A stretch of DNA of 64,000 bases, taken from contig JADJEE010000012.1 in NCBI GenBank assembly GCA_016709225.1, positions 2,307,630 to 2,371,629 on the forward strand. The letters run 5' to 3'. The DNA is from Deltaproteobacteria bacterium (GTDB lineage: Bacteria; Myxococcota_A; Polyangia; Nannocystales; Nannocystaceae). The notes under the pieces were generated by a model. The model did not search any database and was not told the DNA's origin. It saw only the letters and a program-made list of their open reading frames with translations. Shown here piece after piece: positions 4,041 through 38,097 of this stretch. Each line of letters opens with the position of its first letter. The stretch's first letter is position 1. The position numbers were made by a program, and so were the translations under genes.

Positions 4041-5219
4041 ATGGACCTCGTCGCACCGCAGCCCCGCGCGATGTGTCTGCGCTGCCGCCGGCCGCAGGTG
4101 GTCTGCTGGTGCCGGTTCATCACGCCGATCCCCACGCGCACGCGCGTGGTGTTGGTGCAGCACTCGCGCGAGCGCGACGTCGCGATCGGCACCGCACGCA
4201 TGGCGAGTCTCTCGCTGCCGAACTCCGAGCTGCACGTCGGTGTCGACTTCACCGACGACCCCGCGCTCGCGCGCGCGCTCGGCGATCCCACGCGACCACC
4301 GATCCTGCTCTACCCCGGCCGCGACAGCATCGACGTGGTACAGCAACCGCCGACGGGGCCGGTCACGCTGGTGGTGGTCGACGGCACCTGGTCGCAGGCC
4401 AAGACGCTAATCCGCGACAACCCGCAGCTGGCGTCCCTGCCCCGCTACGGCTTCGTGCCGCCCAAGCCCAGCGAGTACCGCATCCGTCGCGAGCCGCAGG
4501 ACGAGTTCGTCTCGACCATCGAAGCACTCGTGCACGTGCTCGGTGCGCTCGAGGGCGCACCGGCGCGGTTCGAGGCCTTGATGACGCCGTTTCGCGCGAT
4601 GGTCGACATGCAGCTCGAGCACATCGGTCGGGTCCATGCTGGCCGTCGCAAGCTGCGGCGTCGACCCACGCGGCCGTCGCCGCGCGGCCCCGCGATCCTG
4701 CGCGAGCGCGCGACGGATCTACTGTGCATCGTCGGGGAGTCGAACGCGTGGCCCCACGGTCACGCGCTGCGCCCCCGCGGCAGCATCGGCGAGCTGGTGC
4801 ACTGGGTCGCGTGGCGCCCCGCGACCGACGAGCGCTTCGAGGCGGTGCTCGCCCCCCGCGGACCGCTGGCGCCCAACACCCCCAGCTACCTCGAGCTGTC
4901 GCAAGCCGCGATCGAGGGCGGCGAGTCGGTCGAGTCCTTCGTCGCACGCTGGCGGGACTTCGTACGCGAGCACGACGTCGTGTGCAGCTGGGGCAGCCAC
5001 GGCATGCGATTGCTGCGACCGACCGGCGGCATCTGGCCCGACCCCCACGTCGATCTTCGTCGCGTGCACGGCACCCTCACGCAGCGACGCGCGGGCAGCC
5101 TCGAACGCGACGCGACCGCGCTCGCACTGCCGGAGATCGCGTCGCCCGCCCACGGTCGCGCGGGGCGACGCCTCGCGCTACTGGCCGCGGTGGTGCGCCA
5201 CTACGCCGAACGCTGCTGA
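4041..5219 (+). CDS. DTW-domain protein (tRNA-uridine aminocarboxypropyltransferase-like) with a ~190-aa C-terminal extension
   Basis: The N-terminal half has the DTW-domain hallmarks: a CxxC pair (CLRCRRPQVVCWC) and the DGTW motif (VVVDGTWSQAK). The ATG at 4041 is in frame with the long track ORF 1827..5219, whose 5' part is antisense to the kinase. The C-terminal half (LCIVGESNAW...SWGSHG...H-x-D) weakly resembles a degenerate DEDDh exonuclease fold. Confidence 0.75.
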   Translation: MDLVAPQPRAMCLRCRRPQVVCWCRFITPIPTRTRVVLVQHSRERDVAIGTARMASLSLPNSELHVGVDFTDDPALARALGDPTRPPILLYPGRDSIDVVQQPPTGPVTLVVVDGTWSQAKTLIRDNPQLASLPRYGFVPPKPSEYRIRREPQDEFVSTIEALVHVLGALEGAPARFEALMTPFRAMVDMQLEHIGRVHAGRRKLRRRPTRPSPRGPAILRERATDLLCIVGESNAWPHGHALRPRGSIGELVHWVAWRPATDERFEAVLAPRGPLAPNTPSYLELSQAAIEGGESVESFVARWRDFVREHDVVCSWGSHGMRLLRPTGGIWPDPHVDLRRVHGTLTQRRAGSLERDATALALPEIASPAHGRAGRRLALLAAVVRHYAERC

Positions 5220-5365
5220 CGAGCTGGGGCGAACACGCTGCCGCGCGCGGCAACCGAATCGTGGCGGCGGGCGTCGCGTCCGCGAGCGCCCATCCCGAAC
5301 GCCTTGACGCAACCGCCACGCCGTGGCTCGCTACGAAGCGAAGGCGCGCCAGGAGGTCTCCCGTC

Positions 5366-5971
5366 ATGCACGAACCGTCGGACGGCCGGGAGCATCGATC
5401 GCGAATGAGACGGACGACGAAACTGCGGGCGAGCCCATGGCTCATGCGGATCCCGCTGCTGGCCGCGTGCGCCGGTCACCGCGAAGTCCCTTCCTCCGCA
5501 CCACCCGAGGTCGTGCGGGTCGAACTGCCCGCGACCGTGTCGCTGCCCGACGAGCCTCATGCCTCTGCGACGACGGGCGCGGAGGCCGGAGCGACACCGG
5601 AACCATTCGTCGCTGTCCGCGATCCGCAGTGCAAGGTCGACGCGGACTGCATTCCGGTGGGCGAGGTCCATCCCTACATCTGCGGGGTCGAGCGCGAGCC
5701 CGAGATGATGTGGCCGGTCGACATGCTCGTTCGAGGGACGCTCGACTACAATGTCCCGGGTACCGGCTGCCTGTGCATCCAACGGCAGTGTGCGATTCGG
5801 GTGAACACTTGCGAGCTACTCATCGGCAGGAAGACCCCGAACTGGGACCTGCCGGTGCGTCGCTGGTGTAACGGCGACAAGCCGGGGCCGCGTCTCAATC
5901 GAGGCCTGGACCCACCGCAGGAGGCCCACCCGAAGGGCACTGGTCAAAGCGATGCGGGCTCCAAACGCTGA
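5366..5971 (+). CDS. Hypothetical lipoprotein (Cys-rich C-terminal domain)
   Basis: An AGGAGG lies 9 nt upstream of the ATG. The signal peptide has a lipobox (MRIPLLAACAG). The C-terminal domain carries 8 Cys. The frame is shared with track ORF 4073..5971. Confidence 0.55.
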   Translation: MHEPSDGREHRSRMRRTTKLRASPWLMRIPLLAACAGHREVPSSAPPEVVRVELPATVSLPDEPHASATTGAEAGATPEPFVAVRDPQCKVDADCIPVGEVHPYICGVEREPEMMWPVDMLVRGTLDYNVPGTGCLCIQRQCAIRVNTCELLIGRKTPNWDLPVRRWCNGDKPGPRLNRGLDPPQEAHPKGTGQSDAGSKR

Positions 5972-6008
5972 GATTCCCGCCATTCGGCCCCACGCGACCG
6001 CGACCGGC

Positions 6009-6920
6009 TCACATCAACACGCCGTCGTCGTCGGGCGTCGGCGGCTCGGGGGCATCGGAGTCGCCGAGTCGATTGCACAGCTCGATCTCGATGTTGGTCG
6101 CGATCGCGTTCAGCGGAAGGGCGGCGGGGGCCATCGAGAACGGGTCCTCGAGCATGGTCCCGACCTGGTCGATCACGCGGAACGCGAAGCAGACGAGCAC
6201 CGCGATCGGGACTGCGAACCATCCAGCTTCCTCGACGATGCCCATCGGCAGTAGCACCGCGAACGCGGCGATGAGCAGCGACGCGACGAACTCGTAGGTC
6301 TGCGGGAACGGGGTCTTCTTGATGCGCTCGCAGCCGCCCTGGACGTCGAGCAGCGTGGCGATCGAGCTGTCGAGGGACTGCAGCGCGCGGGCGTCGAGGT
6401 GGCCGGCGCGGCACAGGCGTGCGAGGTCGCGGAGCTGGCGGTTCAGCAGCGCAGCGTTGACGTTGGGTTCGTCGGTCATTCGCCCGAGCTCGCTCGGCTC
6501 GACGTAGCTCGCGACCTCGGGGTCACGCGTGGCGTCCTGCTCGCGCAGGGAGCAGCGCAGCGCGTGCACGTAGGCGATGTGGCGACGCACGATGCGTTGC
6601 AGGATCGGTCGCAGTCGATCGGCGGGTCCCACCGGGTAGCCCAGCACCTGAATCCCGAACATGCGCGAGGTGTTGACCAGCTGACCCCACAACTTCCGGC
6701 CTTCCCACCAGCGGTCGTAACAGGAGTTGGTGCGGAAGCTGACGAAGATCCCGATCGCTGCACCGATGACCGTGAGCGGCACCGCCGGCAGATCGACCCA
6801 TGTCGCGGTGAGCACATCCTCGAGGAACACCACGATGCCGGCGCACGCGGCATACAGCGCCAGGGCGCGCCACTGCCACACGACGAGCGTGGACACGGAT
6901 CGGTGGTAGTCGACGAACAT
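6009..6920 (-). CDS. Bestrophin-like / UPF0187 (YneE family) anion channel
   Basis: Strong motif match to YneE: FRTNSCYDRWWEGRKLWGQL (compare FRNNACYARYVEARKLWGQL) and EDPFSMAPAALPLNAIATNIE (compare EDPFG..NDLPLNAM). The start is placed at the internal MFVDYH ATG, because the upstream part of the track ORF is Arg/Gly-rich filler. Confidence 0.8.
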   Translation of the reverse strand: MFVDYHRSVSTLVVWQWRALALYAACAGIVVFLEDVLTATWVDLPAVPLTVIGAAIGIFVSFRTNSCYDRWWEGRKLWGQLVNTSRMFGIQVLGYPVGPADRLRPILQRIVRRHIAYVHALRCSLREQDATRDPEVASYVEPSELGRMTDEPNVNAALLNRQLRDLARLCRAGHLDARALQSLDSSIATLLDVQGGCERIKKTPFPQTYEFVASLLIAAFAVLLPMGIVEEAGWFAVPIAVLVCFAFRVIDQVGTMLEDPFSMAPAALPLNAIATNIEIELCNRLGDSDAPEPPTPDDDGVLM

Positions 6921-7659: not shown

Positions 7660-8097
7660 TCACATTCGATCGATGCCGCCCTTGGCGATGATCGCCCCGG
7701 CGACATCGAAGAACGACGCGACGCTGTCGCTGTGATCGCCGCGGATGTGCTTGCCGGCCTTGGTCAACGGGAACGCGGTGATGTCGGCCGCCGGCAGGTG
7801 CACGCCGGGTCCACGCTCGGCATCCTCGCGCCACTGGCCGCCGTAGACCGCGACCATGCACTCGCCGACGAATGCACCGATCGCCAGCGCCATGCGATCG
7901 CAATCATCGGCGGACCACAGCGCCCGGTTGGCTTCGATGTAGCGATCGACCGCGGCGACCCCGGCGTGATCGTACTCGAGTTCGATGCCGACCCGCGCCA
8001 GCGTGCGCACGAGACCGTCGGCGTGATCGCGGAGCTGTCGACGCACGGCATCCATCGAGGGTGACGGTACCGCGACGGCGTGCGCGAGGGGGCGCAT
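7660..8097 (-). CDS. Hypothetical protein
   Basis: C-terminal ~145 aa of track ORF 7660..8364 (MRPLAHAVAVPSPSMDAVRRQL...). Codon usage looks coding. An alternative ATG lies at 8055. Confidence 0.4.
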   Translation of the reverse strand: MRPLAHAVAVPSPSMDAVRRQLRDHADGLVRTLARVGIELEYDHAGVAAVDRYIEANRALWSADDCDRMALAIGAFVGECMVAVYGGQWREDAERGPGVHLPAADITAFPLTKAGKHIRGDHSDSVASFFDVAGAIIAKGGIDRM

Positions 8098-8284
8098 CCG
8101 TCGATGCCGCCCTCGGTGCTCGGTGCCGAGGGGCGACGTGGCGTTGCGGCGGCGAGCAGCCCACGTTTCGGACGCGGCCCGCGAGGCCGCCCGCGGACCG
8201 CCGCGATTGCGCACGTTCGCGCGAGCGCGTGTAATCCCGGCGCAGCCGCGACGATGTCTCGTCGGTGGCCCCGACGATCTGAGC

Positions 8285-9301
8285 ATGCTGCCCCTCGCCC
8301 TCGCACTCGCGACCCTCGCAGGCCCCAGCCCCGAGCTGCCTGCGCCGGAGGAGCCCGTGACCACGGCGACGAGCCTGCGATGGTCGGCGCCACCCTCGTG
8401 CCCCGATCGCGACGCGGTGCTCGGTCAGCTCGCGCCACGGGTGGACCTGGACACCCTCGCCGTCACGGTCGAGATCCACACCACCGACGCCGCGATGCTG
8501 CACGCCGAGGTCGCGATCACCGGCCCGCACGGCAGCACCACGCGCACGCTCGAGAGCCCGGCATGCCAGAGCATCGTCGATGCCGTGGTGCTGTTGGCAG
8601 AGGTGACCGCCGAGTCGCTGCCGAGTCGCAGCGCGCTGGCAGACACGCCGGCGACGGTACCCGAGCCAGTTCCGACGACCGAACCCGCGACGCAGACCGA
8701 GCCGCCACCGCACGACGTGCGCGACGATGCACCGCCCGCGGGGCAGCCGGGCCCCCGTAGGCCCGAGCCCGCGCGCGGGCGTCGGACGCAGGCGCGATTC
8801 GCCGCCGCCGCGGTGGTCGGGGGCAACCTCGTGCCCAATGTCGATGCGGGCGCGCGGCTGTCGATCGGCATCGCGCGTCGGCGCGTCCTCGCGGATGTCG
8901 GCGGGGCCTTCGTCGGGCGGGGACGCCTGCGCCCGAACGACGACGTGCGCCTGCAGTTCGATGCCTGGGCCGCGATCGCGCGGGTGTGCCCGGTCGTACC
9001 GCTGCCGACGCCCCGCCTCGCGCTGGCGATCTGCGGCGTTGCGGCGGCCGGCACCATGGTCGCGAGCGCACAGGGCCCCGGCCTGCTGTTCCCGCGAACC
9101 CGCGCCCAGCCGTGGCTGCGCCTCGCCGCCGGTCCCGAGCTCGGCGTGGTGCTCGGCCCACGCGTGCGGCTGGTCGCCGGCCTCGAGCTCGGCGGCCACG
9201 TCCTGCGCCCGGGCTTCACGCTCGGCGGCCTGGGCCGCATCTGGGCGCCCAGCGGCCTCTCCGCCCATGGCCTGCTCGGCATCGAGGTCCGCGTCCCGTG
9301 A
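8285..9301 (+). CDS. Secreted hypothetical protein (signal peptide; Gly/Ala/Leu-rich C-terminal region), first gene of an ECF sigma operon
   Basis: There is an internal ATG followed by the signal-like MLPLALALATLAGP. The stop overlaps the GTG start of the downstream sigma gene (GTGA). Confidence 0.55.
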   Translation: MLPLALALATLAGPSPELPAPEEPVTTATSLRWSAPPSCPDRDAVLGQLAPRVDLDTLAVTVEIHTTDAAMLHAEVAITGPHGSTTRTLESPACQSIVDAVVLLAEVTAESLPSRSALADTPATVPEPVPTTEPATQTEPPPHDVRDDAPPAGQPGPRRPEPARGRRTQARFAAAAVVGGNLVPNVDAGARLSIGIARRRVLADVGGAFVGRGRLRPNDDVRLQFDAWAAIARVCPVVPLPTPRLALAICGVAAAGTMVASAQGPGLLFPRTRAQPWLRLAAGPELGVVLGPRVRLVAGLELGGHVLRPGFTLGGLGRIWAPSGLSAHGLLGIEVRVP

Positions 9302-9909
9302 CGGGGCCACCGATTGCGAGATCGTTCGACGGATTCGCGGGTCATACCGCAAGAGCGAAGGAGAGCTTGCGCGCCGCCCCCCACGACGCGGACCCGACCC
9401 CGGGCCCGACGACCGCCTTCGAGGCGGCCTACGCCGAACACTTCGGGTTCGTGTGGCGGAGCCTGCGTGGGCTCGGCGTGCCGACGGCGTCGCTCGACGA
9501 CGCGGCGCAGGATGTCTTCGTCGTGGTCCACGATCGACTGCACACGTTCGACTCCACGCGCCCGATGCGGGCGTGGCTGTTCGGCATCGTGCGCAACGTG
9601 GCGCGCCGTCATCACGAGCGCGGCGCGAGGCAGTCGCCGCTGCAGCTGGTGCAGTCGCCCGCGCCGCTCGAGGAGACCATGCAGTGGCGCGAGCGGGCGG
9701 CAGTGGTGGCCGCGATGCTCGAGCAGCTCGACGAGGGCCATCGCGCGGTGTTCTTGCTCGCGCAGCTCGAGGGCGCCACCGCGCCGGAGATCGCCGACGC
9801 GCTCGGCATCAATCTCAACACGGTCTACTCGCGACTGCGAACCGCACGCGCACGCTTCGAGCGCGCGGTCGCACGGCACGAACGACGGGATACGGAGTCG
9901 ACACGATGA
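9298..9909 (+). CDS. ECF-type RNA polymerase sigma factor
   Basis: Sigma-70 region 2 (FEAAYAEHFGFVWRSLRGLG...DAAQDVFVVVHDRLHTF...RAWLFGIVRNV) and region 4 (HRAVFLLAQLEGATAPEIADALGINLNTVYSRL) are present. The proposed GTG start at 9298 overlaps the upstream stop; a later TTG is also possible. Confidence 0.8.
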   Translation: MTGPPIARSFDGFAGHTARAKESLRAAPHDADPTPGPTTAFEAAYAEHFGFVWRSLRGLGVPTASLDDAAQDVFVVVHDRLHTFDSTRPMRAWLFGIVRNVARRHHERGARQSPLQLVQSPAPLEETMQWRERAAVVAAMLEQLDEGHRAVFLLAQLEGATAPEIADALGINLNTVYSRLRTARARFERAVARHERRDTESTR

Positions 9910-30893: not shown

Positions 30894-31697
30894 TCAGCCG
30901 TCGCCCGCGGCGTCGGGCAGGCAGTACGCCGTGTCGCCGACCGGCGTGCAGACGTCGGTACCGTCGCACGACGGCACCTCGAGATCGCAGCTCGGCGCGC
31001 AGACGGCGACGACCATGGGCTCGATCACCGCGCAGGTCCCCGTGCCCGCGCACTCGGGCTCGGAGCTACTGCCGCGGCACTGCTCGACACACACGCCCGT
31101 CGACGCCTCGGCGTCGAGCACCCAACAGAAGGCACCGAACGCACAGTCGTCGACGCCGCTTTGCGGCTGGCCCTCGACGTGACACGGCTCGCCGATGTCG
31201 CTGGCGTCGGGCTGCACGGGGCTGCAGCGCGCCCGGTTCCAGGTGTCGCCGCCGTCGTTCGCCCACGGCTGGCACTTCTCGTCCGCGGGGCAATCCTGCG
31301 CGAACACGTCGCACTCCACCAACGCGCCACCGAGATCCGGTGCGCCATAGATGAAGCCACCCGCGGTCATGTCGGTGTCGAGCTCGGAGGTCGACGAGTC
31401 GACGCCGCTGTCCGAGAGCGTGGAGGCCGAGCCCTCGGTCGCCGTCGGCGCGCTCGTGCTCGACATGCCCTGCGTCGCATCGCCAGCCGAGGTCTCCGTG
31501 CCGGCGGAATCGCCCCCCGAGTCGCCGCCCTGCGGTTCTCCGCAGGCGAACAACATCGTCGAGATCGCCACCACCGCGATCGCCGGTGCAGAGGCCACGA
31601 CGACGCGGCCCACCGGTGCACGACAGAACGGACACACCAACTCGCGCATCGCCACGTGCCGCCGACACCCACCACACCGCTGCATGATCTCACCCAT
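30894..31697 (-). CDS. Bitopic Cys-rich protein: N-terminal zinc-ribbon, one TM helix, extracytoplasmic Cys-rich (EGF-like) domain
   Basis: QRCGGCRRHVAMRELVCPFCRAP (CxxC...CxxC ribbon) is followed by the TM helix VVVASAPAIAVVAISTMLF and then a periplasmic domain with about 24 Cys in repeated C..C..C patterns. The ATG overlaps the stop of the upstream radical SAM gene. Confidence 0.6.
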   Translation of the reverse strand: MGEIMQRCGGCRRHVAMRELVCPFCRAPVGRVVVASAPAIAVVAISTMLFACGEPQGGDSGGDSAGTETSAGDATQGMSSTSAPTATEGSASTLSDSGVDSSTSELDTDMTAGGFIYGAPDLGGALVECDVFAQDCPADEKCQPWANDGGDTWNRARCSPVQPDASDIGEPCHVEGQPQSGVDDCAFGAFCWVLDAEASTGVCVEQCRGSSSEPECAGTGTCAVIEPMVVAVCAPSCDLEVPSCDGTDVCTPVGDTAYCLPDAAGDG

Positions 31698-33055
31698 CAC
31701 GTTGCCATCCCTTCGAGTCCATCCTCGGAGACACCGAGTTCGATTGTGTGACCCGGCCCCGAAGGGTCGCGGTCGCGTCCGGTGCGGGGCTCATCGATCT
31801 GCACCGGCCCGGCGGCCCGCAGCGCCGGATCGGTGTGCTCGCGAATCAAGCGGAAGAGGCCGTGCGCGAAGGCCTCTGGGCCCGCCGCCGCAACCTGTTC
31901 GACGCGCTCGCGCAGCCCCATGCGGTCGAGCTCGAGCGCGCGATGATGACAGTAGGGGTTGTTGCCGGGGCGCCCGAGCAACGGCTCGCTGGTCGCCGTG
32001 CAGCCGGCCATGCAAGTCGAGGCGTAGTAGCACTCGCGGCAGTAGCCCCACAGGTCGTCGAGCGTGCGGCGCTCCACGTAACGCATCGGCTCCGCGCCTT
32101 CCCACAGCGCGCGCAGCCCGTGCTCGCGCCAGCTGCCCCCGGTGTTGGTCGGCCCGCCCAGGCTCGGACAGCTCTTGATCGCGCCGTCGGCTTCGATGCC
32201 GATGCCGGTGAGGCCGGCCTGACAGCCACGATAGTGGGCGCCCTGGTTCTGCGACTGGCGCAGCTCGTGCTCGACCGGGCCGAAGTAGCCGAGGTTGTTG
32301 CCCGGCCAGATCCGGATGCCGCGTGCGCGTGCGCGCGGGATCATCTCGTCGAGCATCGCGAAGACCTCGAGCAGGTCGTAGGGCTGCAGCAACAGCTCGG
32401 GGTGATCCGCTGCGTTGCCGTGCGGCATCGTCAAGAACATCTGCCACGCGCGCACCCCCGCGTCGGCGAGCAGCTCGGCGAGCGCGGGCAGATCGTGGCG
32501 GCTCTTGGCGTTGATCTGGCTGTTCGCCCCCGTCGAGATGCCCGCGGCCTGGGCATGGCGGAGCGCCGCAAAGGCGCGGCGCCATCCGCCGGGCGTGCCG
32601 CGCAGCGCGTCGTGGCTGGCTTCGAGCCCGTCGATCGACACCGACACGAACTGCAGACCAGCCTCGACCAGCGCGTCCGCACGGGCGCGAGTGAGATTGA
32701 GCCCACCGGTGACCATCGATGCCTTCATGCCGGCCTGCCGAATCGCCCGGATCACGAGCAACACGTCGGCACGCAGGTAGGCCTCGCCGCCGATCAGGTC
32801 GACCTCACCGACACCGAGCTGGGCGAGCTCTTCGACGAGCTTCAACGCCTCGTCGGTGGTGAGCTCGTCGGGTCGAGCACGACCCGCGCGTGGCCCACAC
32901 GCGACGCACTTCTGATCGCACGCGAGCGTGAACTCCCAGACCGCGAGCTTCGGCGTCGGTCGCTCGCCCGGCGCCAGCGGTCGAGCCCAACGCGTACCCG
33001 AACGCGGCAACGATGCGACGATGGGAAGCCGACGCCGCATCTGCTCGAACCCCAT
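31697..33055 (-). CDS. Radical SAM enzyme with a C-terminal SPASM domain (peptide/protein-modifying maturase family)
   Basis: CxxxCxxC (LACDQKCVACG) plus the SAM-binding GGE-like motif (DLIGGEAYL). The C-terminal SPASM cysteines are present (CPSLGG...GYCRECYYASTCMAGC...NNPYC). Candidate starts are a GTG at 33088 and ATGs at 33055 or 33040. Confidence 0.85.
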   Translation of the reverse strand: MGFEQMRRRLPIVASLPRSGTRWARPLAPGERPTPKLAVWEFTLACDQKCVACGPRAGRARPDELTTDEALKLVEELAQLGVGEVDLIGGEAYLRADVLLVIRAIRQAGMKASMVTGGLNLTRARADALVEAGLQFVSVSIDGLEASHDALRGTPGGWRRAFAALRHAQAAGISTGANSQINAKSRHDLPALAELLADAGVRAWQMFLTMPHGNAADHPELLLQPYDLLEVFAMLDEMIPRARARGIRIWPGNNLGYFGPVEHELRQSQNQGAHYRGCQAGLTGIGIEADGAIKSCPSLGGPTNTGGSWREHGLRALWEGAEPMRYVERRTLDDLWGYCRECYYASTCMAGCTATSEPLLGRPGNNPYCHHRALELDRMGLRERVEQVAAAGPEAFAHGLFRLIREHTDPALRAAGPVQIDEPRTGRDRDPSGPGHTIELGVSEDGLEGMAT

Positions 33056-33143
33056 CGATGACGATGGTGAACGCGCCACCGGGATCACGCAAGCGTTTTG
33101 TTCGCTAAGTTGGCAAAGCTTGAGTTGGTTCGCAGTCCGCCGC

Positions 33144-33160
33144 GAACTTTCGAAAAGTTC
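33144..33160. promoter_or_regulatory. Inverted repeat GAACTTTcgaAAAGTTC in the AT-rich promoter region of the radical SAM operon
   Basis: 7-bp perfect arms with a 3-nt spacer. It sits inside the only low-GC stretch of the window (about 33085-33230), 60-100 nt upstream of the radical SAM start. Confidence 0.3.
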
Positions 33161-33424
33161 ATGCGATAGGCCTCACAAAGTCGGAGATCTTTTTGCGGAT
33201 CGGCAGGCGACGCGGCCGGTCTATCCGTCCCGCGGCAGCGGGGGTCTGCCATCGGCCCTCGCAAGCTCGCGCCCGCGCATCGGGACCGACGGTGCGATCG
33301 CGAACGCGGGCCCGATGAACTCGACCGACCCGCGAAGCTGTGGTGTCGCCGTGGGGGCAGCGACCTCGCGCGCTCGCGAGGATGCGTGCACGCGAGGATC
33401 ACATCGTGCCGTACGAGCAGTTCA

Positions 33425-33458
33425 CCTTCGCTTGTGTCCGCGCGGACACAAGCGAAGG
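33425..33458. promoter_or_regulatory. Perfect 34-bp palindrome ccttcgcttgtgtccgcg|cggacacaagcgaagg
   Basis: The reverse complement is identical to the sequence, with no loop. It lies 56 nt upstream of the lipoprotein ATG (33514) in the divergent intergenic region. There is no U-tract, so a terminator is unlikely and an operator is more plausible. Confidence 0.45.
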
Positions 33459-33513
33459 CGCACGTGCGGATCGCGGCACCGACGGACGAGCGCTGATAAC
33501 CTCGGCGACGCTG

Positions 33514-35811
33514 ATGCTCGGATCTCGCGCCGCCATTCTCCTCGTCGCGTTCTCCTTCGGCTGCCACTCCGACGGCGGCGGCACGGCCGTCGGCGACAGC
33601 ACCGGCACCACCGCGGCGGGATCGACCTCCACCACCGCGGGCAGCAGCGACGCCGCCAGCGACAGCGGCGGCGGCACGCCCATCGATCCCGAGTCGCTCG
33701 GCCACAGCTGCGTGGTCGTGCGGGGCGGTGACACCTGGCTCGCGCGCAGCGGCGATGCGTTCGGCTTCTCCGCGACCGCGGCCGCCGACGCCACATCATT
33801 CCGCCTGCAGCCGTCGGACCTCGCGACCTACCTGCTCTACGACGCCGAGCGCGGCTACCTCGTGGCCGAGGACGGCCCCTTGCTGCGCCAGACCCAGCTC
33901 GAGTCGGACCTCACGCGGGTCGATGACGATTACGTCTCGGGCGCCGAGTGGATCGTCGAACCCGCCGCCGGTGCGACCGTGCACCTGCGCAACCGTCGAA
34001 CCGATCGCCTGCTCGGCGCGAGCGGACTGGTCGACGACGAGGCCAGCGCGCTGGCGATTGCGCTCGATGCCGGCGACGGCTGCACCGACCACCCCGAGCT
34101 CACGCTCGACGCCACCGGCACCCCCACCAAGACCACCTTCGACGACGGCACCGTCTACGGCATCGTCGACACGCACTCGCACATCCTCTCGAACTTCGGC
34201 TTCGGCGGCGGCGGCATCTTCCACGGCGCGCCGTTCCACCGCTTGGGCATCGAGCATGCGCTCGCCGACTGTGCGCCATTCCACGGCGAGAACGGTCGCA
34301 AGGACTTCTTCGGCTACGCGTTCGACTCGGCGGGCGCCGACGGTGCCGACATCGCCTCGGTCATCCCCGATCTGATCGCCGGCTCGCTCTCGGTCGACGC
34401 CCACGCCACCGCCGGCTACCCCACGTTCACCGAGTGGCCCAGCGCGCCGACCCGGTCGACCCATCAGATGCAGTACTACAAGTGGCTCGAGCGCGCATGG
34501 CTGGGCGGGCTTCGGCTGGTCGTGCAGCACGCCACCACCAACTCGGCGATCTGCCACATGATCGCCGGCCAGGGCCTGCAGCCGGTGCGCTACTCGTGCG
34601 AAGACATGGTCGCCGTCGATCGCATCATCGACGAGACCTACGCGCTCGAGCGCTACATCGACGCGCAATCCGGCGGCAGCGGCAAGGGCTGGTTCCGCGT
34701 GGTCACGACCCCCGCCGACGCTCGCGAGGTGATCGCCGCCGGCAAGCTCGCCGTGGTGCTCGGCATCGAGACCTCGGATCTGTTCGACTGCCGGCTGGTG
34801 CCGCGCGAGGGCGGCCCGACCTGCGACGCCGACTTCCTGCGCGCACAGCTCGACGCCTACCGCGACCGCGGCGTGCGGGCGGTGTTCCCCGTGCACAAGT
34901 ACGACAACGCGTTCGGCCCCGGCGATGGCGACCGCGCGTTCATCGAGCTCGGCAACTTCTTCAACTCCGGTCACTGGTCGAACTTCACGCAGGAGTGCCC
35001 GGCGGAGCGCCCGGCTCGCTTCGACAACGGTGACGTGCAGTTCGGCGGCCTCAACATGCCGCGCGAGCAGTTCGATGCGCCGCCGCCGAACGACTTCAGC
35101 AACTTCCCGGGCGCACCGCTGGCGACCGCCCTGCCCTACATCAACGCGATCTCGGCGCCTGCGCTGGTCGGCGACTACTGCCAGAACGCGAGCATGACGA
35201 CGCTCGGCGAGACGCTCATGCGCGAGATGATGCTGCGCGGGATGATCATCGAGATCGATCACTTGCCGCAGTGGTCGTACCAGCGGGCCTTCGAGCTGCT
35301 CGAGGAGAACGACTACCCCGCGGTCGGCTCGCACGGCGGCACCTACGACGGCCGGCTCTACGAGCTCGGCGGCGTGTCGAAGACCGGCCTCGGCGAGTGC
35401 CGCGAAGACACCCCCGGCGCGATGACGCAGCGCCTGCGCGATCGCATCGAAGAGATCGTCGCGCATGGTGGCTATCCCGCCGAGGGCTTCGGCTTCGACC
35501 TCAACGGCTTCGCCGGCGCGCCCGGTGGGCGCTTCGAGGCCGGCGCCTGCGCGACGGCACAGGCCGATCCCGTCACCTACCCGTTCACGTCCTTCGCCGG
35601 CGACGTCGAGTTCACGCAGCCGATGCTCGGCGAGCGCGTCGTCGACTACGCCAACGAGGGCTTCGTACACATTGGGATGCTGCCCGAGATGCTCGAGGAC
35701 GCCCGCCGCGACGCCACCTCCGACGACGACCTCGAGCCGCTGTTCCACTCCGCCGAGGGCTACCTCCGCATGTGGGAGCGGGCCGAGCAGCGCGCGGGCG
35801 AGCTGCAGTGA
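33514..35811 (+). CDS. Large secreted lipoprotein, putative metal-dependent hydrolase (membrane-dipeptidase-like TIM barrel?)
   Basis: Lipobox LVAFSFGCHSDGGG. Motifs IVDTHSHILSN, VFPVHKYDNAFG and LDAYRDRGVR are present. The 766-aa product is the C-terminal part of track ORF 33340..35811. Confidence 0.65.
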   Translation: MLGSRAAILLVAFSFGCHSDGGGTAVGDSTGTTAAGSTSTTAGSSDAASDSGGGTPIDPESLGHSCVVVRGGDTWLARSGDAFGFSATAAADATSFRLQPSDLATYLLYDAERGYLVAEDGPLLRQTQLESDLTRVDDDYVSGAEWIVEPAAGATVHLRNRRTDRLLGASGLVDDEASALAIALDAGDGCTDHPELTLDATGTPTKTTFDDGTVYGIVDTHSHILSNFGFGGGGIFHGAPFHRLGIEHALADCAPFHGENGRKDFFGYAFDSAGADGADIASVIPDLIAGSLSVDAHATAGYPTFTEWPSAPTRSTHQMQYYKWLERAWLGGLRLVVQHATTNSAICHMIAGQGLQPVRYSCEDMVAVDRIIDETYALERYIDAQSGGSGKGWFRVVTTPADAREVIAAGKLAVVLGIETSDLFDCRLVPREGGPTCDADFLRAQLDAYRDRGVRAVFPVHKYDNAFGPGDGDRAFIELGNFFNSGHWSNFTQECPAERPARFDNGDVQFGGLNMPREQFDAPPPNDFSNFPGAPLATALPYINAISAPALVGDYCQNASMTTLGETLMREMMLRGMIIEIDHLPQWSYQRAFELLEENDYPAVGSHGGTYDGRLYELGGVSKTGLGECREDTPGAMTQRLRDRIEEIVAHGGYPAEGFGFDLNGFAGAPGGRFEAGACATAQADPVTYPFTSFAGDVEFTQPMLGERVVDYANEGFVHIGMLPEMLEDARRDATSDDDLEPLFHSAEGYLRMWERAEQRAGELQ

Positions 35812-36114: not shown

Positions 36115-38097
36115 ATGAGACCGATCGTTCCGACCGAAGCTCGCCTGTCCACGACCCAACCCGCTGCGAGGATCGCCACGATCCCGCGCCCGAGCCCCAA
36201 CTCGCGACTGCGAGTGATGCTCGCCACCGACAAGGAGATGGCAGAGTCGCTGAAGAACCTGTCCGCGTTGCCGCGCGGCGAGGGCTTCGGCGTCACACCA
36301 GACACTGCGCGCGCGCTCGTGATCGCGACGCCGCGACCGGGCACCCGCACCGACGAAGGCGTGGAGCCGCCGGGCGGCTTCGTCGCCGAGGCGATCGTGC
36401 TCGACCACGCGCGGCCGTCATTGCTCGTTCGCAACGGCCGCATCTCACTGCCGACCTCGGCGCTGTGGCGCCAACGACTGCAGCCGCACTCCTTCGAACT
36501 CGAGCAGAGCGTTGCCGCGGTGGGCCGCATCGAGCTGCTCAACCACGACTCGCTCGACTGGATCGGCACCGGCTGGGCAGTCGGTGACCGCGCCATCGTC
36601 ACCAATCGACACGTCGCGCTGCACTTCGCGCGCAAGAAGGGACGCGGCTTCGCCTTCGTGACCAACGCGCGTGGCAAGACCATCGGCGCGCGCGTCGACT
36701 TCCGCGAAGAGCACCGCACTCGCAAGGTCAACGAGGTCGGGGTGGAGAAGATCCTGTGGATCACCGCCGACAGCAGCAAGCAGCCCGATCTCGCACTGCT
36801 GTGGCTATCGAACTCCGCCCATCTCCCCGACCCGATCCCGCTGTCGACCCGCAAGCCGAAGAAGGGCGCCTACGTCGGCGTGGTCGGCTACCCGGCCCGC
36901 GACAGCCGCAACGACTCCGATCTGATGTCGGAGATCTTCGGCGACATCTACGGCGTCAAGCGCTTCGCGCCTGGCATGGTCACCTCGGTCTCGAAGGGCT
37001 TCTGGTTCGGACACGACGCGTCGACCCTGGGCGGCAACTCGGGCTCGCTGGTGCTCGACCTCGAGTCGGGCAAGGCTTTCGGCGTGCACTTCGGCGGCAA
37101 ATTCCACGAGGAGAACTACGCCGTGAAGGCCGACACGCTCAAGCGCCTGATGAGTCGCGCGAAGGTGTCGAGCAAGGCCAAGGCGCCCACGGTCGAGGAG
37201 GAGGCCGTCAAGGACAGGCCGCGCGAGGCCTCGTGGTTCGAGGATGGGCGCGAAGGCTACGATCCGAAGTTTCTCGGCAACACCGCTGCGCATCGTGTGC
37301 CGCTGCCGCGGCTCGGCAAGTGGGCGAGCAAGGTCGTGAAGCGAACCGGCGCGCGCGGGGCCAACGCTCACGTCCTGCCGTACACCCACTTCTCGGTCGT
37401 GCTGTGCCGCACCCGCAAGCTGCCGCTGTACGCCGCCGTGAACATCGACGGCAACGAGCTCTTCAAGATCGTGCGCAAGGCCGACCGCTGGTACTTCGAC
37501 CCGCGCGTCCCGCTCAAGTACCAGACCGGCAACGAGGCCTACAGCAACAACGCATTCGATCGCGGCCACATGGTCCGGCGGCAGGATCCCGTGTGGGGCA
37601 CGCGCGCGACCGCGACCGTGGCCAATGGCGACACGTTCCACTACACCAACGCCGCGCCGCAGCACGATTCGATGAACCAGGAGACATGGTTGTCGCTCGA
37701 GGACTACGTGCTCGAGAATGCGGCCGCCTACGGCCTGCGGGTCACCGTCTTCAACGGCCCGGTCTTCGCCGACGACGACCCCAAGTACCGCAATATCCGC
37801 CTACCGCAGCGCTTCTGGAAGATCGCGGTGCTCGTCGACGAAGATACCGACCGCCTCTCGGCCACCGGCTACCTGCTCACGCAGGTCGACGAGGTTGCCG
37901 ACACCACCGACGAGTTCGTCTACGGCCAGCACCGCACCTACCAGGTGCCCATCGCCCACATCGAGAATCTCACCGGTCTCGGCTTCGGCAAGCTCGCTGA
38001 GCACGATCCGCTGCGCGACGTCGAGATCGTCGAAGGTCGCGAGCAGGCGACGATGCGCCCGATCGAGCGCGGCGAAGACATCGTGTTCTCGCGGTGA
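36115..38097 (+). CDS. Cytoplasmic fusion protein: trypsin-like (V8/Glu-specific-type) serine protease + DNA/RNA non-specific endonuclease
   Basis: A GGGGG lies 6 nt upstream of the ATG. There is no signal peptide. The protease triad context is present: TNRHV (His), PDLALLWL (Asp), TLGGNSGSLVLD (Ser). The C-terminal Endonuclease_NS hallmarks are present: FSVVLCRTRKLPLYAAVNI, DRGHMVRRQD, NAAPQHDSMNQETW. Confidence 0.85.
   Translation: MRPIVPTEARLSTTQPAARIATIPRPSPNSRLRVMLATDKEMAESLKNLSALPRGEGFGVTPDTARALVIATPRPGTRTDEGVEPPGGFVAEAIVLDHARPSLLVRNGRISLPTSALWRQRLQPHSFELEQSVAAVGRIELLNHDSLDWIGTGWAVGDRAIVTNRHVALHFARKKGRGFAFVTNARGKTIGARVDFREEHRTRKVNEVGVEKILWITADSSKQPDLALLWLSNSAHLPDPIPLSTRKPKKGAYVGVVGYPARDSRNDSDLMSEIFGDIYGVKRFAPGMVTSVSKGFWFGHDASTLGGNSGSLVLDLESGKAFGVHFGGKFHEENYAVKADTLKRLMSRAKVSSKAKAPTVEEEAVKDRPREASWFEDGREGYDPKFLGNTAAHRVPLPRLGKWASKVVKRTGARGANAHVLPYTHFSVVLCRTRKLPLYAAVNIDGNELFKIVRKADRWYFDPRVPLKYQTGNEAYSNNAFDRGHMVRRQDPVWGTRATATVANGDTFHYTNAAPQHDSMNQETWLSLEDYVLENAAAYGLRVTVFNGPVFADDDPKYRNIRLPQRFWKIAVLVDEDTDRLSATGYLLTQVDEVADTTDEFVYGQHRTYQVPIAHIENLTGLGFGKLAEHDPLRDVEIVEGREQATMRPIERGEDIVFSR

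What the first reader, a model, noticed from the sequence alone, without database searches (positions are those of the whole stretch)
30894..33230. Radical SAM/SPASM maturase translationally coupled to a zinc-ribbon-anchored, Cys-rich bitopic protein
The 31697..33055 gene has the CxxxCxxC core and a full SPASM auxiliary-cluster domain, the class that installs thioether or carbon-carbon crosslinks or oxidises Cys/Ser in peptides and proteins. Its stop overlaps (ATGA) the start of a protein whose topology is an N-terminal cytoplasmic zinc-ribbon, one TM helix, and a ~190-aa extracytoplasmic domain with about 24 Cys in EGF-like spacing. No sulfatase, QHNDH subunits, PQQ genes or small leader-peptide genes are nearby, so the Cys-rich protein is the most plausible substrate or partner. 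The pair sits behind its own AT-rich promoter carrying an inverted repeat (33144..33160). A SPASM maturase acting on a membrane-anchored protein domain, rather than a small RiPP precursor, would be unusual.
Basis: partly seen in the sequence, partly recalled or inferred. Interest (0 to 1): 0.7.

Follow-up and report, generated by a model that had tools for sequence, protein, structure and literature searches.

The report
Tyrosine-splicing-type enzyme paired with lipoprotein
The radical SAM gene is a relative of the "splicease" enzymes that cut a tyrosine out of a protein backbone, and its real conserved partner feature is not the cysteine-rich domain but a zinc-knuckle-tagged lipoprotein signal plus a Tyr-Gly site, an architecture repeated in most related loci from Nannocystaceae and their relatives.

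Summary
Both genes are real.

**The enzyme.** The radical SAM/SPASM protein (31697..33055, minus strand) scores best against two NCBIfam families. They are TIGR03913 (Y-X10-GDL peptide maturase) and TIGR04103 (Nif11-class maturase 3, which I believe from memory is the PlpX tyramine-splicease family). It falls below both cutoffs. It is 49% identical to a true TIGR03913 member.

**The partner.**
- In 65 of 80 related genome loci, a neighbouring gene starts with C-x2-C-x-R-H-x8-C-P-F-C.
- That motif is followed by a hydrophobic stretch ending in a lipobox Cys, then a Ser/Thr-rich linker.
- In 75 of 76 cases, at least one x-Y-[G/A]-[G/A]-P motif follows.
- Only the closest orthologues carry the Cys-rich domain.
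- Cys-rich homologues that lack the knuckle also lack the Tyr-Gly and the neighbouring enzyme.

**Best reading (confidence about 0.55).** The cytoplasmic enzyme docks on the zinc-knuckle leader. It modifies Tyr113 in FIYGAP, most likely by tyramine excision to a ketoamide, before Sec export. Lipoprotein signal peptidase would then remove the leader.

**Novelty.** This is a new precursor architecture for a known kind of system. I could not check whether Scott et al. 2022 already list it.

The parts
31697..33055 (-). Radical SAM/SPASM enzyme, 452 aa, cytoplasmic (no signal peptide). Splicease-like clade.
   Evidence: ORF. Identical to P0001. NCBIfam TIGR03913 scores 424.7 bits and TIGR04103 scores 421.6 bits, both below cutoff. 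49% identity over 393 aa to a true TIGR03913 member.
32897..32920 (-). CDQKCVAC, the CxxxCxxC radical SAM cluster motif (residues 46-53).
   Evidence: Sequence, coordinates. Pfam Radical_SAM scores 70 bits.
31949..32224 (-). SPASM auxiliary-cluster region with seven Cys (278, 296, 339, 342, 348, 352, 369), including CRECYYASTCMAGC.
   Evidence: Full-length alignment to SPASM-family NCBIfam models. Pfam SPASM is weak at 17.6 bits.
31695..31700 (-). Gene junction GTGATG. The enzyme's stop TGA (31699..31697) overlaps the candidate partner starts GTG (31700) and ATG (31697).
   Evidence: An ATGA overlap is seen in orthologue L002. L003 has a gap of about 95 nt.
30894..31685 (-). Partner gene (263 aa from MQRC; alternative starts at 31697 and 31700). 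A lipoprotein precursor with an extended leader, and the probable substrate.
31623..31676 (-). N-terminal four-Cys zinc knuckle CGGCRRH-x8-CPFC (residues 4-21). Proposed cytoplasmic leader or docking element.
   Evidence: Present in partners at 65 of 80 enzyme loci: 2.13 hits per 10 kb within 2.5 kb of the enzyme, against 0.09 per 10 kb farther away. AlphaFold pLDDT is 81-90. It superposes on NZF/RanBP2 zinc fingers at about 1 A rmsd, with weak E-values.
31542..31607 (-). Signal-peptide hydrophobic region RVVVASAPAIAVVAISTMLFA plus the lipobox LFAC (Cys48).
   Evidence: Cys is invariant in alignment A1, including homologues that start directly with a short signal peptide. 62 of 63 partners have this Cys at the end of a hydrophobic stretch that is uncharged in 54 of 63, and 50 of 63 fit the lipobox pattern used.
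31314..31541 (-). Disordered Ser/Thr/Asp/Gly-rich linker (residues 49-124).
   Evidence: AlphaFold pLDDT is mostly below 50. Composition of short partners: T 19%, G 17%, S 15%, D 12%.
31338..31355 (-). FIYGAP (residues 111-116, Tyr113). Predicted modification (splice) site, 12 residues before the first Cys of the folded domain.
   Evidence: All 17 knuckle-bearing homologues have F-[IY]-Y-[GA] here. 10 of the 11 full-length knuckle-less homologues lack Tyr-Gly at this junction. 75 of 76 partners carry Y[GA]. 86 of 122 Tyr in short partners are followed by Gly, against a Gly frequency of 0.17.
30897..31313 (-). Cys-rich 'WANDGG' domain (16 Cys, all-beta). Cargo domain, not the conserved link to the enzyme.

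Best explanation
This is a self-contained two-gene protein-modification module of the splicease type.

**Proposed mechanism**
1. The cytoplasmic radical SAM/SPASM enzyme recognises its co-encoded lipoprotein precursor through the N-terminal zinc knuckle (CxxCxRH-x8-CPFC). The knuckle sits upstream of the signal-peptide hydrophobic core and therefore stays in the cytoplasm.
2. Before or during Sec export, the enzyme modifies Tyr113 in the disordered FIYGAP segment. The most likely chemistry is excision of a tyramine equivalent (C8H9NO, -135.07 Da). [quoted passage not shown]
3. Lipidation at Cys48 and cleavage by lipoprotein signal peptidase would then remove the knuckle together with the signal peptide. 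No dedicated leader protease or exporter would be needed.
4. The mature product would be a lipid-anchored, disulfide-rich protein with a ketoamide just ahead of its folded domain.

**Shown**
- Homology of the enzyme to the relevant families.
- The conserved association of the enzyme with knuckle, lipobox and Y[GA] partners.
- The three-way co-occurrence of knuckle, Tyr-Gly and enzyme.

**Inferred**
- The chemistry.
- The leader role of the knuckle.
- Lipidation and signal peptidase II cleavage.
- Any protease-inhibitor role.
For: **Enzyme homology**
- The two best NCBIfam hits are TIGR03913 (424.7 bits) and TIGR04103 (421.6 bits). The next family scores 140 bits.
- The enzyme is 49% identical over 393 aa to a Pseudomonas TIGR03913 member.
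- PlpX, a SPASM radical SAM enzyme that acts on Nif11-type precursors, excises tyramine at X-Y-G (PMC5995677; PMC11414181; PMC11002830).
- A search for rSAM-SPASM genes with YG-rich neighbours is how the field predicted spliceases in 189 genera (PMC10849128).

**Partner conservation**
- 65 of 80 loci (47-86% identity; Nannocystaceae, Polyangiaceae and a Bradymonadales MAG) have at least one knuckle gene within 2.5 kb. That is a 24-fold enrichment over more distant flanks. 75 of 76 partners contain Y[GA].
- 70% of Tyr in short partners precede Gly. The consensus is G-x-[APS]-[DAL]-Y-[GA]-[GA]-P, in 1-9 copies.
- Within the Cys-rich family, the knuckle and FIYG co-occur in 17 of 17 homologues. 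Knuckle-less homologues have FII, FIL or FVL at that position. Two of them (P0141, P0151) have no radical SAM gene within 6 kb, although the downstream flank of P0151 runs off its contig.
- P0140 has YG, sits directly after a radical SAM gene, and its true N-terminus carries the knuckle.

**Further support**
- TIGR03913 partners also have a conserved P-x-Y-[GA].
- Only the enzyme and the partner are conserved across loci.
- Enzyme and leader co-diversify: Mantel rho 0.27, with 0 of 999 permutations reaching it.
- The YG site lies in a disordered segment and the knuckle is confidently folded.
Against: - No experiment exists for this clade.
- The enzyme is below the curated cutoffs of both related families. 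I could not compare it directly with a validated splicease sequence.
- About 16% of the Tyr sites are Y-A rather than Y-G. The papers read here describe splicing only at X-Y-G.
- 15 of 80 loci have no adjacent knuckle partner, including Nannocystis punicea, N. radixulma and N. exedens at 68% identity.
- No PlpY-like accessory protein was found, although binary systems without a Y protein are known (PMC11414181).
- Lipoprotein processing is inferred from sequence only. F at position -2 of the lipobox is atypical, and the Cys lies at residue 48, outside the window that standard predictors use.
Confidence: 0.55

Rival explanations
1. The enzyme acts on the conserved Tyr but with different chemistry. 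Candidates are a Tyr C-C or C-O crosslink (PqqE-, RrrB- or triceptide-like), hydroxylation, or epimerisation next to Tyr.
For: - The enzyme is below the cutoffs of both related equivalog models, so function transfer is not automatic.
- Y-A sites are frequent.
- A subgroup has E-x-A-D-Y-G, which recalls the E-x3-Y of PqqA (the PqqA motif is from my own knowledge).
- In the papers I found, the TIGR03913 system is treated as uncharacterised.
Against: - PqqE, SkfB and other crosslinking families score only 69-87 bits, against about 420 bits for the splicease-type pair.
- Glu at position -4 occurs at only 18 of 122 sites.
- No second conserved residue that could act as a crosslink partner is evident around the Tyr.
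Confidence: 0.2
2. The SPASM enzyme installs thioether or other crosslinks in, or oxidises Cys of, the C-terminal Cys-rich extracytoplasmic domain.
For: - The two genes are adjacent, with overlapping stop and start.
- The domain has 16 Cys.
- Many SPASM enzymes make thioethers (general knowledge).
Against: - 56 of the 64 distinct complete partners collected across the 80 loci lack the Cys-rich domain and have only about five Cys, four in the knuckle and one in the lipobox.
- The domain occurs in ordinary lipoproteins with no enzyme nearby.
- Sactipeptide-type families score 87 bits or less.
- The domain would fold and form disulfides only after export, out of reach of a cytoplasmic enzyme.
Confidence: 0.05
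3. The zinc knuckle itself is the target. The enzyme would crosslink or otherwise modify its Cys residues, or the knuckle would bind an Fe-S cluster, and the Tyr-Gly motif would serve another purpose.
For: - The knuckle is the most sharply conserved partner feature.
- A stand-alone knuckle protein without a YG motif follows the enzyme in L070.
Against: - The knuckle is predicted as a folded zinc ribbon.
- It would be discarded with the signal peptide.
- This model does not explain the strict co-occurrence of the knuckle with Tyr-Gly, or the 1-9 repeats of the Tyr motif.
Confidence: 0.1
4. The partner is a bitopic signalling protein, like an anti-sigma factor: cytoplasmic zinc domain, transmembrane helix, extracytoplasmic sensor. 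Its adjacency to the enzyme would be regulatory or fortuitous.
For: - The topology resembles zinc-binding anti-sigma factors (general knowledge).
- Half of the partners are on the opposite strand from the enzyme.
Against: - There is no zf-HC2 or other Pfam match.
- There is no ECF sigma gene next to the pair.
- An invariant Cys ends the hydrophobic stretch.
- Most partners have only a low-complexity tail instead of a sensor domain.
- The association is 24-fold enriched near the enzyme.
Confidence: 0.05

Closest known systems
Tyramine spliceases and spliceotides (PlpX/PlpY, PcpX, RhaX, RcsX, RasX). NCBIfam TIGR04103, 'nif11-class peptide radical SAM maturase 3'.
   Same: - The enzyme is a radical SAM/SPASM protein with strong full-length homology: 421.6 bits, covering profile positions 6-386 of 412.
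- The adjacent precursor has one or more X-Y-G motifs in an unstructured region.
- It is a binary enzyme-plus-precursor organisation, like type II systems (PMC11414181).
- Protein-sized substrates are possible (PMC11414181).
   Different: - The score is below the family cutoff of 725 bits.
- There is no Nif11 or NHLP leader and no PlpY.
- The leader is a four-Cys zinc knuckle fused to a lipoprotein signal peptide.
- Sites often read Y-A.
- No dedicated protease or exporter is present.
- The host is Myxococcota.
- The chemistry is untested here.
[quoted passage not shown] Found in Pseudomonas, Burkholderia, Ralstonia and Chromobacterium.
   Same: - It is the closest curated family: 424.7 bits and 49% identity to member P0377.
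- Its partners also carry a conserved P-x-Y-[G/A] site.
- Its substrates are protein-sized.
   Different: - The score is below the cutoff of 591.75 bits.
- Its partners are DUF1843 and DUF1842+DUF1843 cytoplasmic proteins with Y-x10-GDL, arranged as a trio upstream of the enzyme.
- The window partner has no DUF1842 or DUF1843 domain, no GDL motif, and is exported.
NCBIfam TIGR04133, 'rSAM_w_lipo'.
   Same: It is a SPASM radical SAM family and the third-best NCBIfam hit. From memory, untested here: it is a Bacteroidetes rSAM/lipoprotein system in which the enzyme is paired with a lipoprotein.
   Different: The score is only 140.5 bits against a cutoff of 425. The partner family is unrelated. 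I recall this pairing from memory and did not examine it here.
Structurally solved SPASM or twitch radical SAM enzymes: BlsE, SkfB, PqqE.
   Same: They share the radical SAM core (query residues 24-217).
   Different: Scores are only 57-79 bits and do not extend across the SPASM half. The chemistries differ (decarboxylation, thioether formation, Glu-Tyr crosslink). No structure exists for any close relative.

Membership tests
Radical SAM / SPASM superfamily | CxxxCxxC cluster motif in a radical SAM core | tested here: met
   CDQKCVAC at residues 46-53. Pfam PF04055 scores 70 bits against a gathering score of 29.5.
Radical SAM / SPASM superfamily | C-terminal seven-Cys SPASM motif (C...C, then Cx2Cx5Cx3C, then C) | tested here: met
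   Cys at 278, 296, 339, 342, 348, 352 and 369. Pfam SPASM alone is sub-threshold at 17.6 against 21.5.
TIGR04103 (Nif11-class maturase 3; PlpX-type splicease) | HMM score at or above the curated cutoff of 725 bits | tested here: not met
   421.6 bits.
TIGR04103 (Nif11-class maturase 3; PlpX-type splicease) | Adjacent precursor with a Nif11 or NHLP leader | tested here: not met
   The partner has no NCBIfam hit, and only a 12.9-bit sub-threshold zinc-finger (zf-C3HC4_3) match in Pfam. Its leader is a Cys knuckle plus a signal peptide.
TIGR04103 (Nif11-class maturase 3; PlpX-type splicease) | PlpY-like RRE accessory protein (type I systems only) | tested here: not met
   No third gene is conserved across the 80 loci. 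Binary systems without a Y protein are known (PMC11414181).
Spliceotide systems in general | X-Y-G motif or motifs in the gene next to the rSAM-SPASM enzyme | tested here: met
   FIYG in the window protein. 75 of 76 partners have Y[GA]. 86 of 122 Tyr are followed by Gly.
Spliceotide systems in general | [quoted passage not shown] | not testable with these tools
   This needs co-expression and LC-MS/MS.
TIGR03913 (GDL motif peptide-associated maturase) | HMM score at or above the curated cutoff of 591.75 bits | tested here: not met
   424.7 bits. A true member, P0155, scores 771 bits.
TIGR03913 (GDL motif peptide-associated maturase) | Upstream DUF1843 or DUF1842+DUF1843 partners with Y-x10-GDL | tested here: not met
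   These are present in L085 and L086 and absent from the window.
   PqqE scores 76 against 381, StsB 86.8 against 625, SkfB 69 against 300. No anSME or QhpD model appears among the best 25.
Bacterial lipoprotein (partner) | Uncharged hydrophobic region ending in a lipobox [LVI]-x-[GAS]-C | tested here: met
   VVVASAPAIAVVAISTMLFA|C. The Cys is invariant in alignment A1. 50 of 63 partners fit the pattern and 62 of 63 have the Cys.
Bacterial lipoprotein (partner) | Lipobox Cys within about the first 35 residues (the usual predictor rule, from memory) | tested here: not met
   The Cys is at residue 48 because of the knuckle extension of about 26 residues. Knuckle-less homologues do satisfy the rule.
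Bacterial lipoprotein (partner) | Lipidation by Lgt and cleavage by LspA | not testable with these tools
   This needs globomycin sensitivity, palmitate labelling, or N-terminal mass spectrometry.
Zinc ribbon / knuckle (partner N-terminus) | Two CxxC knuckles on beta-hairpins | tested here: inconclusive
   CGGC and CPFC are present. AlphaFold gives pLDDT 81-90 with two short strands. Residues superpose on NZF/RanBP2 fingers at about 1 A over 26 residues, but E-values exceed 2. Metal binding was not tested.

The most novel reading that the evidence does not exclude
The zinc-knuckle-extended lipoprotein signal peptide serves two purposes. It is a RiPP-style recognition tag for a cytoplasmic backbone-editing radical SAM enzyme, and it is the export signal that signal peptidase II removes. 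Nannocystaceae and related Myxococcota would then make many surface-anchored lipoproteins and lipopeptides that carry ketoamide (beta-amino acid) warheads, possibly protease inhibitors used in predation or defence. This would be the first case in which lipoprotein sorting replaces the leader protease and exporter of a RiPP pathway. It would also give spliceotides a native biological context.
Probability: 0.3. Interest if true: 0.8.

Novelty: new variant of a known kind. Interest (0 to 1): 0.6.

Why it matters
- **Native role of spliceotides.** Spliceases are known from heterologous expression, but the native products and their roles remain elusive (PMC9811515; PMC8868522). This clade offers a concrete and abundant natural setting. 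The database holds more than 6000 homologues with E below 1e-20, with several paralogous modules per Nannocystis genome. The substrates are lipoprotein precursors, so the fate of the product (lipid-anchored and exported) can be predicted from sequence.
- **Leader logic.** If the knuckle is the recognition element, it is a compact leader of about 25 residues that housekeeping signal peptidase removes. That would interest protein engineers who want to install ketoamides in exported proteins.
- **Annotation.** Automated pipelines call these enzymes 'heme biosynthesis protein' or 'AlbA' (P0073 and P0077). Gene callers also cut the knuckle off partner genes (P0140; P0128).

Tried and rejected
- The repeat exists but is absent from all 84 loci then fetched.
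- The upstream region does not align with the orthologues.
- No sigma-70 promoter or terminator pattern was found.
- I dropped it as part of the system.

**Other conserved accessory genes (PlpY/RRE, protease, transporter)**
- I clustered all ORFs of the 80 loci.
- Only the enzyme is universal.
- An HTTM-like membrane protein recurs in 13 loci of one subgroup.

**Fold of the Cys-rich domain**
- Foldseek against the PDB gave E of 0.4 or more.
- The afdb50 library was unavailable.

**Direct comparison with a validated splicease sequence**
- Scott et al. 2022 (Chem 8:2659) is not held.
- The supplements of three Piel-group papers contain no enzyme sequences.
- I screened 20 of the 50%-identity cluster representatives and found one true TIGR03913 member, but no true TIGR04103 member.

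**Loci without an obvious partner**
- A relaxed search for YG-rich low-complexity ORFs found nothing in 14 of them.
- L006 shows other genes next to the enzyme.

**Rejected reading**
- I considered a PqqA-like E-x3-Y crosslink. Glu at position -4 occurs at only 18 of 122 sites.


Full report
**What is in the window.** Two minus-strand genes occupy the reported interval.

The upstream gene (31697..33055) encodes a 452-aa protein identical to a public protein from a 'Deltaproteobacteria bacterium' MAG (P0001). Its closest relatives are Nannocystaceae proteins. It has CDQKCVAC at residues 46-53 and seven further Cys in SPASM spacing. Pfam Radical_SAM scores 70 bits, and Pfam SPASM scores a sub-threshold 17.6 bits.

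The downstream gene (30894..31685/31700) encodes a protein that starts MQRCGGCRRHVAMRELVCPFC. This is followed by a 20-residue hydrophobic stretch ending LFAC, and then a 76-residue Ser/Thr/Asp/Gly-rich stretch. A C-terminal region with 16 Cys comes last.

The junction reads ACGTGATG. The stop TGA overlaps a GTG start by 4 nt or an ATG start by 1 nt. Orthologue L002 has a literal ATGA overlap. L003 has a gap of about 95 nt.

- The protein has 21 Cys, not about 24.
- The folded domain is about 135 aa, behind a disordered linker, rather than about 190 aa.
- The inverted repeat at 33144..33160 exists but is absent from every related locus.

**Which family the enzyme belongs to.** Against NCBIfam, two families stand far above the rest. 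[quoted passage not shown] TIGR04103 ('nif11-class peptide radical SAM maturase 3') scores 421.6 bits against a cutoff of 725. The next hit scores 140 bits. PqqE, SkfB, StsB and mycofactocin-type maturases score 69-87 bits, and no anSME or QhpD model is among the best 25.

The enzyme is 49% identical over 393 residues to a Pseudomonas koreensis protein named as a TIGR03913 member. Another member, P0155, passes that cutoff at 771 bits. More distant myxobacterial and other relatives (L064, L070, L073, L076, L077) are likewise below both cutoffs. The window enzyme therefore belongs to an unmodelled clade of a wider superfamily.

No close relative has a solved structure. The best PDB match is BlsE at 78.8 bits.

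The functional anchor comes from the literature. PlpX is a SPASM radical SAM enzyme (IPR026482) that acts on Nif11-type precursors. [quoted passage not shown] That IPR026482 corresponds to TIGR04103 is my recollection, not a tool result.

**What the conserved partner is.** I fetched 80 genome loci that encode relatives of the enzyme at 47-86% identity. They come from Nannocystis, Plesiocystis, Enhygromyxa, Paraliomyxa, and MAGs assigned to Polyangiaceae, Sandaracinaceae and Bradymonadales.

Full-length matches to the Cys-rich protein lie next to the enzyme only in the closest orthologues (L002-L004, L008) and a few paralogous loci (L054, L056, L057).

What recurs instead is a gene that begins M-x(1-5)-C-x2-C-x-R-[HFY]-x8-C-P-F-C. 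About 25 residues later comes an uncharged hydrophobic stretch ending in L-x-[GA]-C. A Thr/Gly/Ser/Asp-rich low-complexity region follows.
- 65 of 80 loci have at least one such gene within 2.5 kb of the enzyme.
- The motif density is 2.13 per 10 kb near the enzyme and 0.09 per 10 kb in the remaining flanks.
- The 64-kb window has exactly one such gene, at the enzyme.
- Some loci carry three or four tandem copies (L013, L027, L056).
- No other gene is conserved with the pair, and the window's own neighbours are not found in orthologous loci.
- Orientation varies: 29 partners are co-directional and 28 are on the opposite strand.
- Enzyme and leader sequences co-diversify (Mantel rho 0.27, with 0 of 999 permutations reaching it).

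**The Tyr-Gly motif.** Apart from the leader, the short partners share only one feature. They carry one to nine copies of G-x-[APS]-[DAL]-Y-[GA]-[GA]-P.
- Every one of the 56 short partners has at least one Tyr.
- 86 of 122 Tyr are followed by Gly, although Gly makes up 17% of residues. 20 are followed by Ala, and Pro occupies position +3 in 72.
- 75 of 76 sufficiently complete partners contain Y[GA].
- In the window protein the single copy is GGFIYGAPDLGG (Tyr113). It lies in the disordered linker, 12 residues before the first Cys of the folded domain.

A natural experiment supports the link. Among 32 homologues of the Cys-rich protein, all 17 with the knuckle have F-[IY]-Y-[GA] at this position. 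Homologues that begin with an ordinary short lipoprotein signal have FII, FIL, FVL or FIG there instead. Two such knuckle-less genes (P0141 and P0151) have no radical SAM gene within 6 kb, although the downstream flank of P0151 runs off its contig. P0140 looked like an exception because it has YG but no knuckle. It lies directly after a radical SAM gene, and its true start, missed by the gene caller, encodes the knuckle.

Knuckle, Tyr-Gly and enzyme therefore travel together. The Cys-rich domain is separable cargo.

**Link to the curated sister family.** TIGR03913 was formerly named 'Y-X(10)_GDL-associated radical SAM protein'. In Pseudomonas and Ralstonia loci the enzyme follows three DUF1843 or DUF1842+DUF1843 genes. 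The products of those genes contain PPYGVAIQSAIKQGDV, PLYAAPIQSAIASGDL and PLYAVAVQQAQTSGDL. A conserved Tyr followed by Gly or Ala is thus the common denominator of partners in the window clade and its curated sister, and published spliceases likewise act at X-Y-G. This strengthens the view that the Tyr is the site of action, and shows that Y-A is not peculiar to the myxobacterial clade. In the papers I could read, the TIGR03913 system is treated as uncharacterised.

**Topology and proposed mechanism.** The enzyme has no signal peptide, so it must act in the cytoplasm. In the partner, the Cys at the end of the hydrophobic stretch is invariant, even in homologues that lack the knuckle and look like ordinary lipoproteins. 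62 of 63 partners have this Cys, and 50 of 63 fit the lipobox pattern I used.

AlphaFold models residues 1-30 as a confident small beta-hairpin knuckle (pLDDT 81-90). This superposes on NZF/RanBP2 zinc fingers at about 1 A, although the E-values are not significant.

I infer the following sequence of events:
1. The knuckle stays cytoplasmic and docks the enzyme. This would play the role that a leader helix or PlpY plays in known spliceases.
2. The Tyr site in the unfolded linker is modified.
3. The precursor is exported and lipidated.
4. Signal peptidase II removes the leader. This would explain why no protease or transporter gene accompanies the pair.

Spliced peptides inhibit serine and cysteine proteases. 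A protease-inhibitor role for the mature lipoprotein is therefore possible, but it is speculation. The Cys-rich domain has no family or fold match that could help.

**Weak points.**
- Nothing here tests the chemistry.
- The enzyme fails both curated cutoffs.
- I could not obtain a validated splicease sequence, or Scott et al. 2022. Secondary sources say that paper predicted 939 systems in 189 genera by looking for YG-rich neighbours of rSAM-SPASM genes. This clade may already be listed there.
- Fifteen loci lack an adjacent partner, including Nannocystis species at 68% identity.
- About one site in six is Y-A.
- Lipoprotein processing is inferred from sequence alone.

**Verdict.** The gene pair is a genuine, conserved maturase-substrate module. 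The module is best described as a splicease-like, Tyr-directed radical SAM system with a previously undescribed precursor architecture, as far as I could check. That architecture is a zinc-knuckle leader fused to a lipoprotein signal. I rate it a new variant of a known kind, with interest 0.6.

Noticed in passing
window 33144..33160: Inverted repeat GAACTTT-TCG-AAAGTTC in the 285-nt gap between the enzyme gene and the divergent 823-aa gene. It lies in a segment that the 86% orthologues lack, and no fetched locus has it.
   Followed up: yes
window 36115..38097 (+): A 660-aa protein that fuses a trypsin-like peptidase domain (Trypsin_2, 53.8 bits) to a DNA/RNA non-specific endonuclease domain (168.6 bits). 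This is an unusual combination.
   Followed up: no
window 33340..35811 (+): An 823-aa protein divergent from the enzyme gene. It has a lipoprotein-like N-terminus (LLVAFSFGC) and a Ser/Thr-rich linker. Its only Pfam hit is a weak, partial Peptidase_M19 match (33.4 bits). It is not conserved next to the module in orthologous loci.
   Followed up: partly
L011 6911..9322 and 12 other loci (for example L014, L015, L018, L021, L040): An approximately 800-aa membrane protein with a weak HTTM-domain hit (22.5 bits) recurs in 13 loci. The partner subgroup whose knuckle reads CPECACLF...CPFC and whose sites read (S/V)TY[AG]GPD occurs in several of the same loci. It could be a subgroup-specific accessory protein.
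   Followed up: partly
L070 (Rhodobacteraceae MAG) 4577..6388: The enzyme here scores 510 bits to TIGR03913. It is followed by a stand-alone 68-aa knuckle protein (CKSC...CPLC) with no signal peptide and no YG. It is preceded by a 63-aa ORF that starts MPQPRILYGVML. This suggests the knuckle can be a separate accessory protein. A second radical SAM gene (2267..3241) and a 76-aa ORF that looks like a RiPP leader peptide (3266..3496; not scanned against any family library) lie just upstream.
   Followed up: partly
L013 6568..8578, L027 6440..8690, L056 968..6886: Tandem arrays of three or four paralogous knuckle-lipoprotein genes sit beside a single enzyme gene. This resembles multi-precursor RiPP clusters.
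   Followed up: partly
L006, L007, L010 (Nannocystis punicea, N. radixulma, N. exedens; enzyme 68% identical): These enzyme paralogues have no adjacent knuckle or YG gene. L006 has a second, unrelated radical SAM gene about 1.5 kb downstream on the opposite strand (7879..9357). Either the substrate is encoded elsewhere or it is different.
   Followed up: partly
L082 5863..6624; P0128; P0140: Public gene calls truncate partner genes at an internal Met. This removes the zinc knuckle, so database proteins under-report the architecture.
   Followed up: yes
window 30897..31313 (-) and alignment A1: The Cys-rich domain has the core motif CDVxAQDCPxGEKCxPWANDGGxxWNATRCxP. AlphaFold predicts it with high confidence (pLDDT above 90), yet it has no Pfam, NCBIfam or PDB fold match. 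All named sources among the 32 homologues found are Nannocystaceae, Nannocystales or Paraliomyxa. Longer homologues add a second Cys-rich module.
   Followed up: partly
L085 1941..3399, L086 1885..3410: The DUF1843 and DUF1842+DUF1843 partners of TIGR03913 carry Tyr followed by Gly or Ala (PYGV, LYAA, LYAV), exactly 10 residues before GD[LV].
   Followed up: partly
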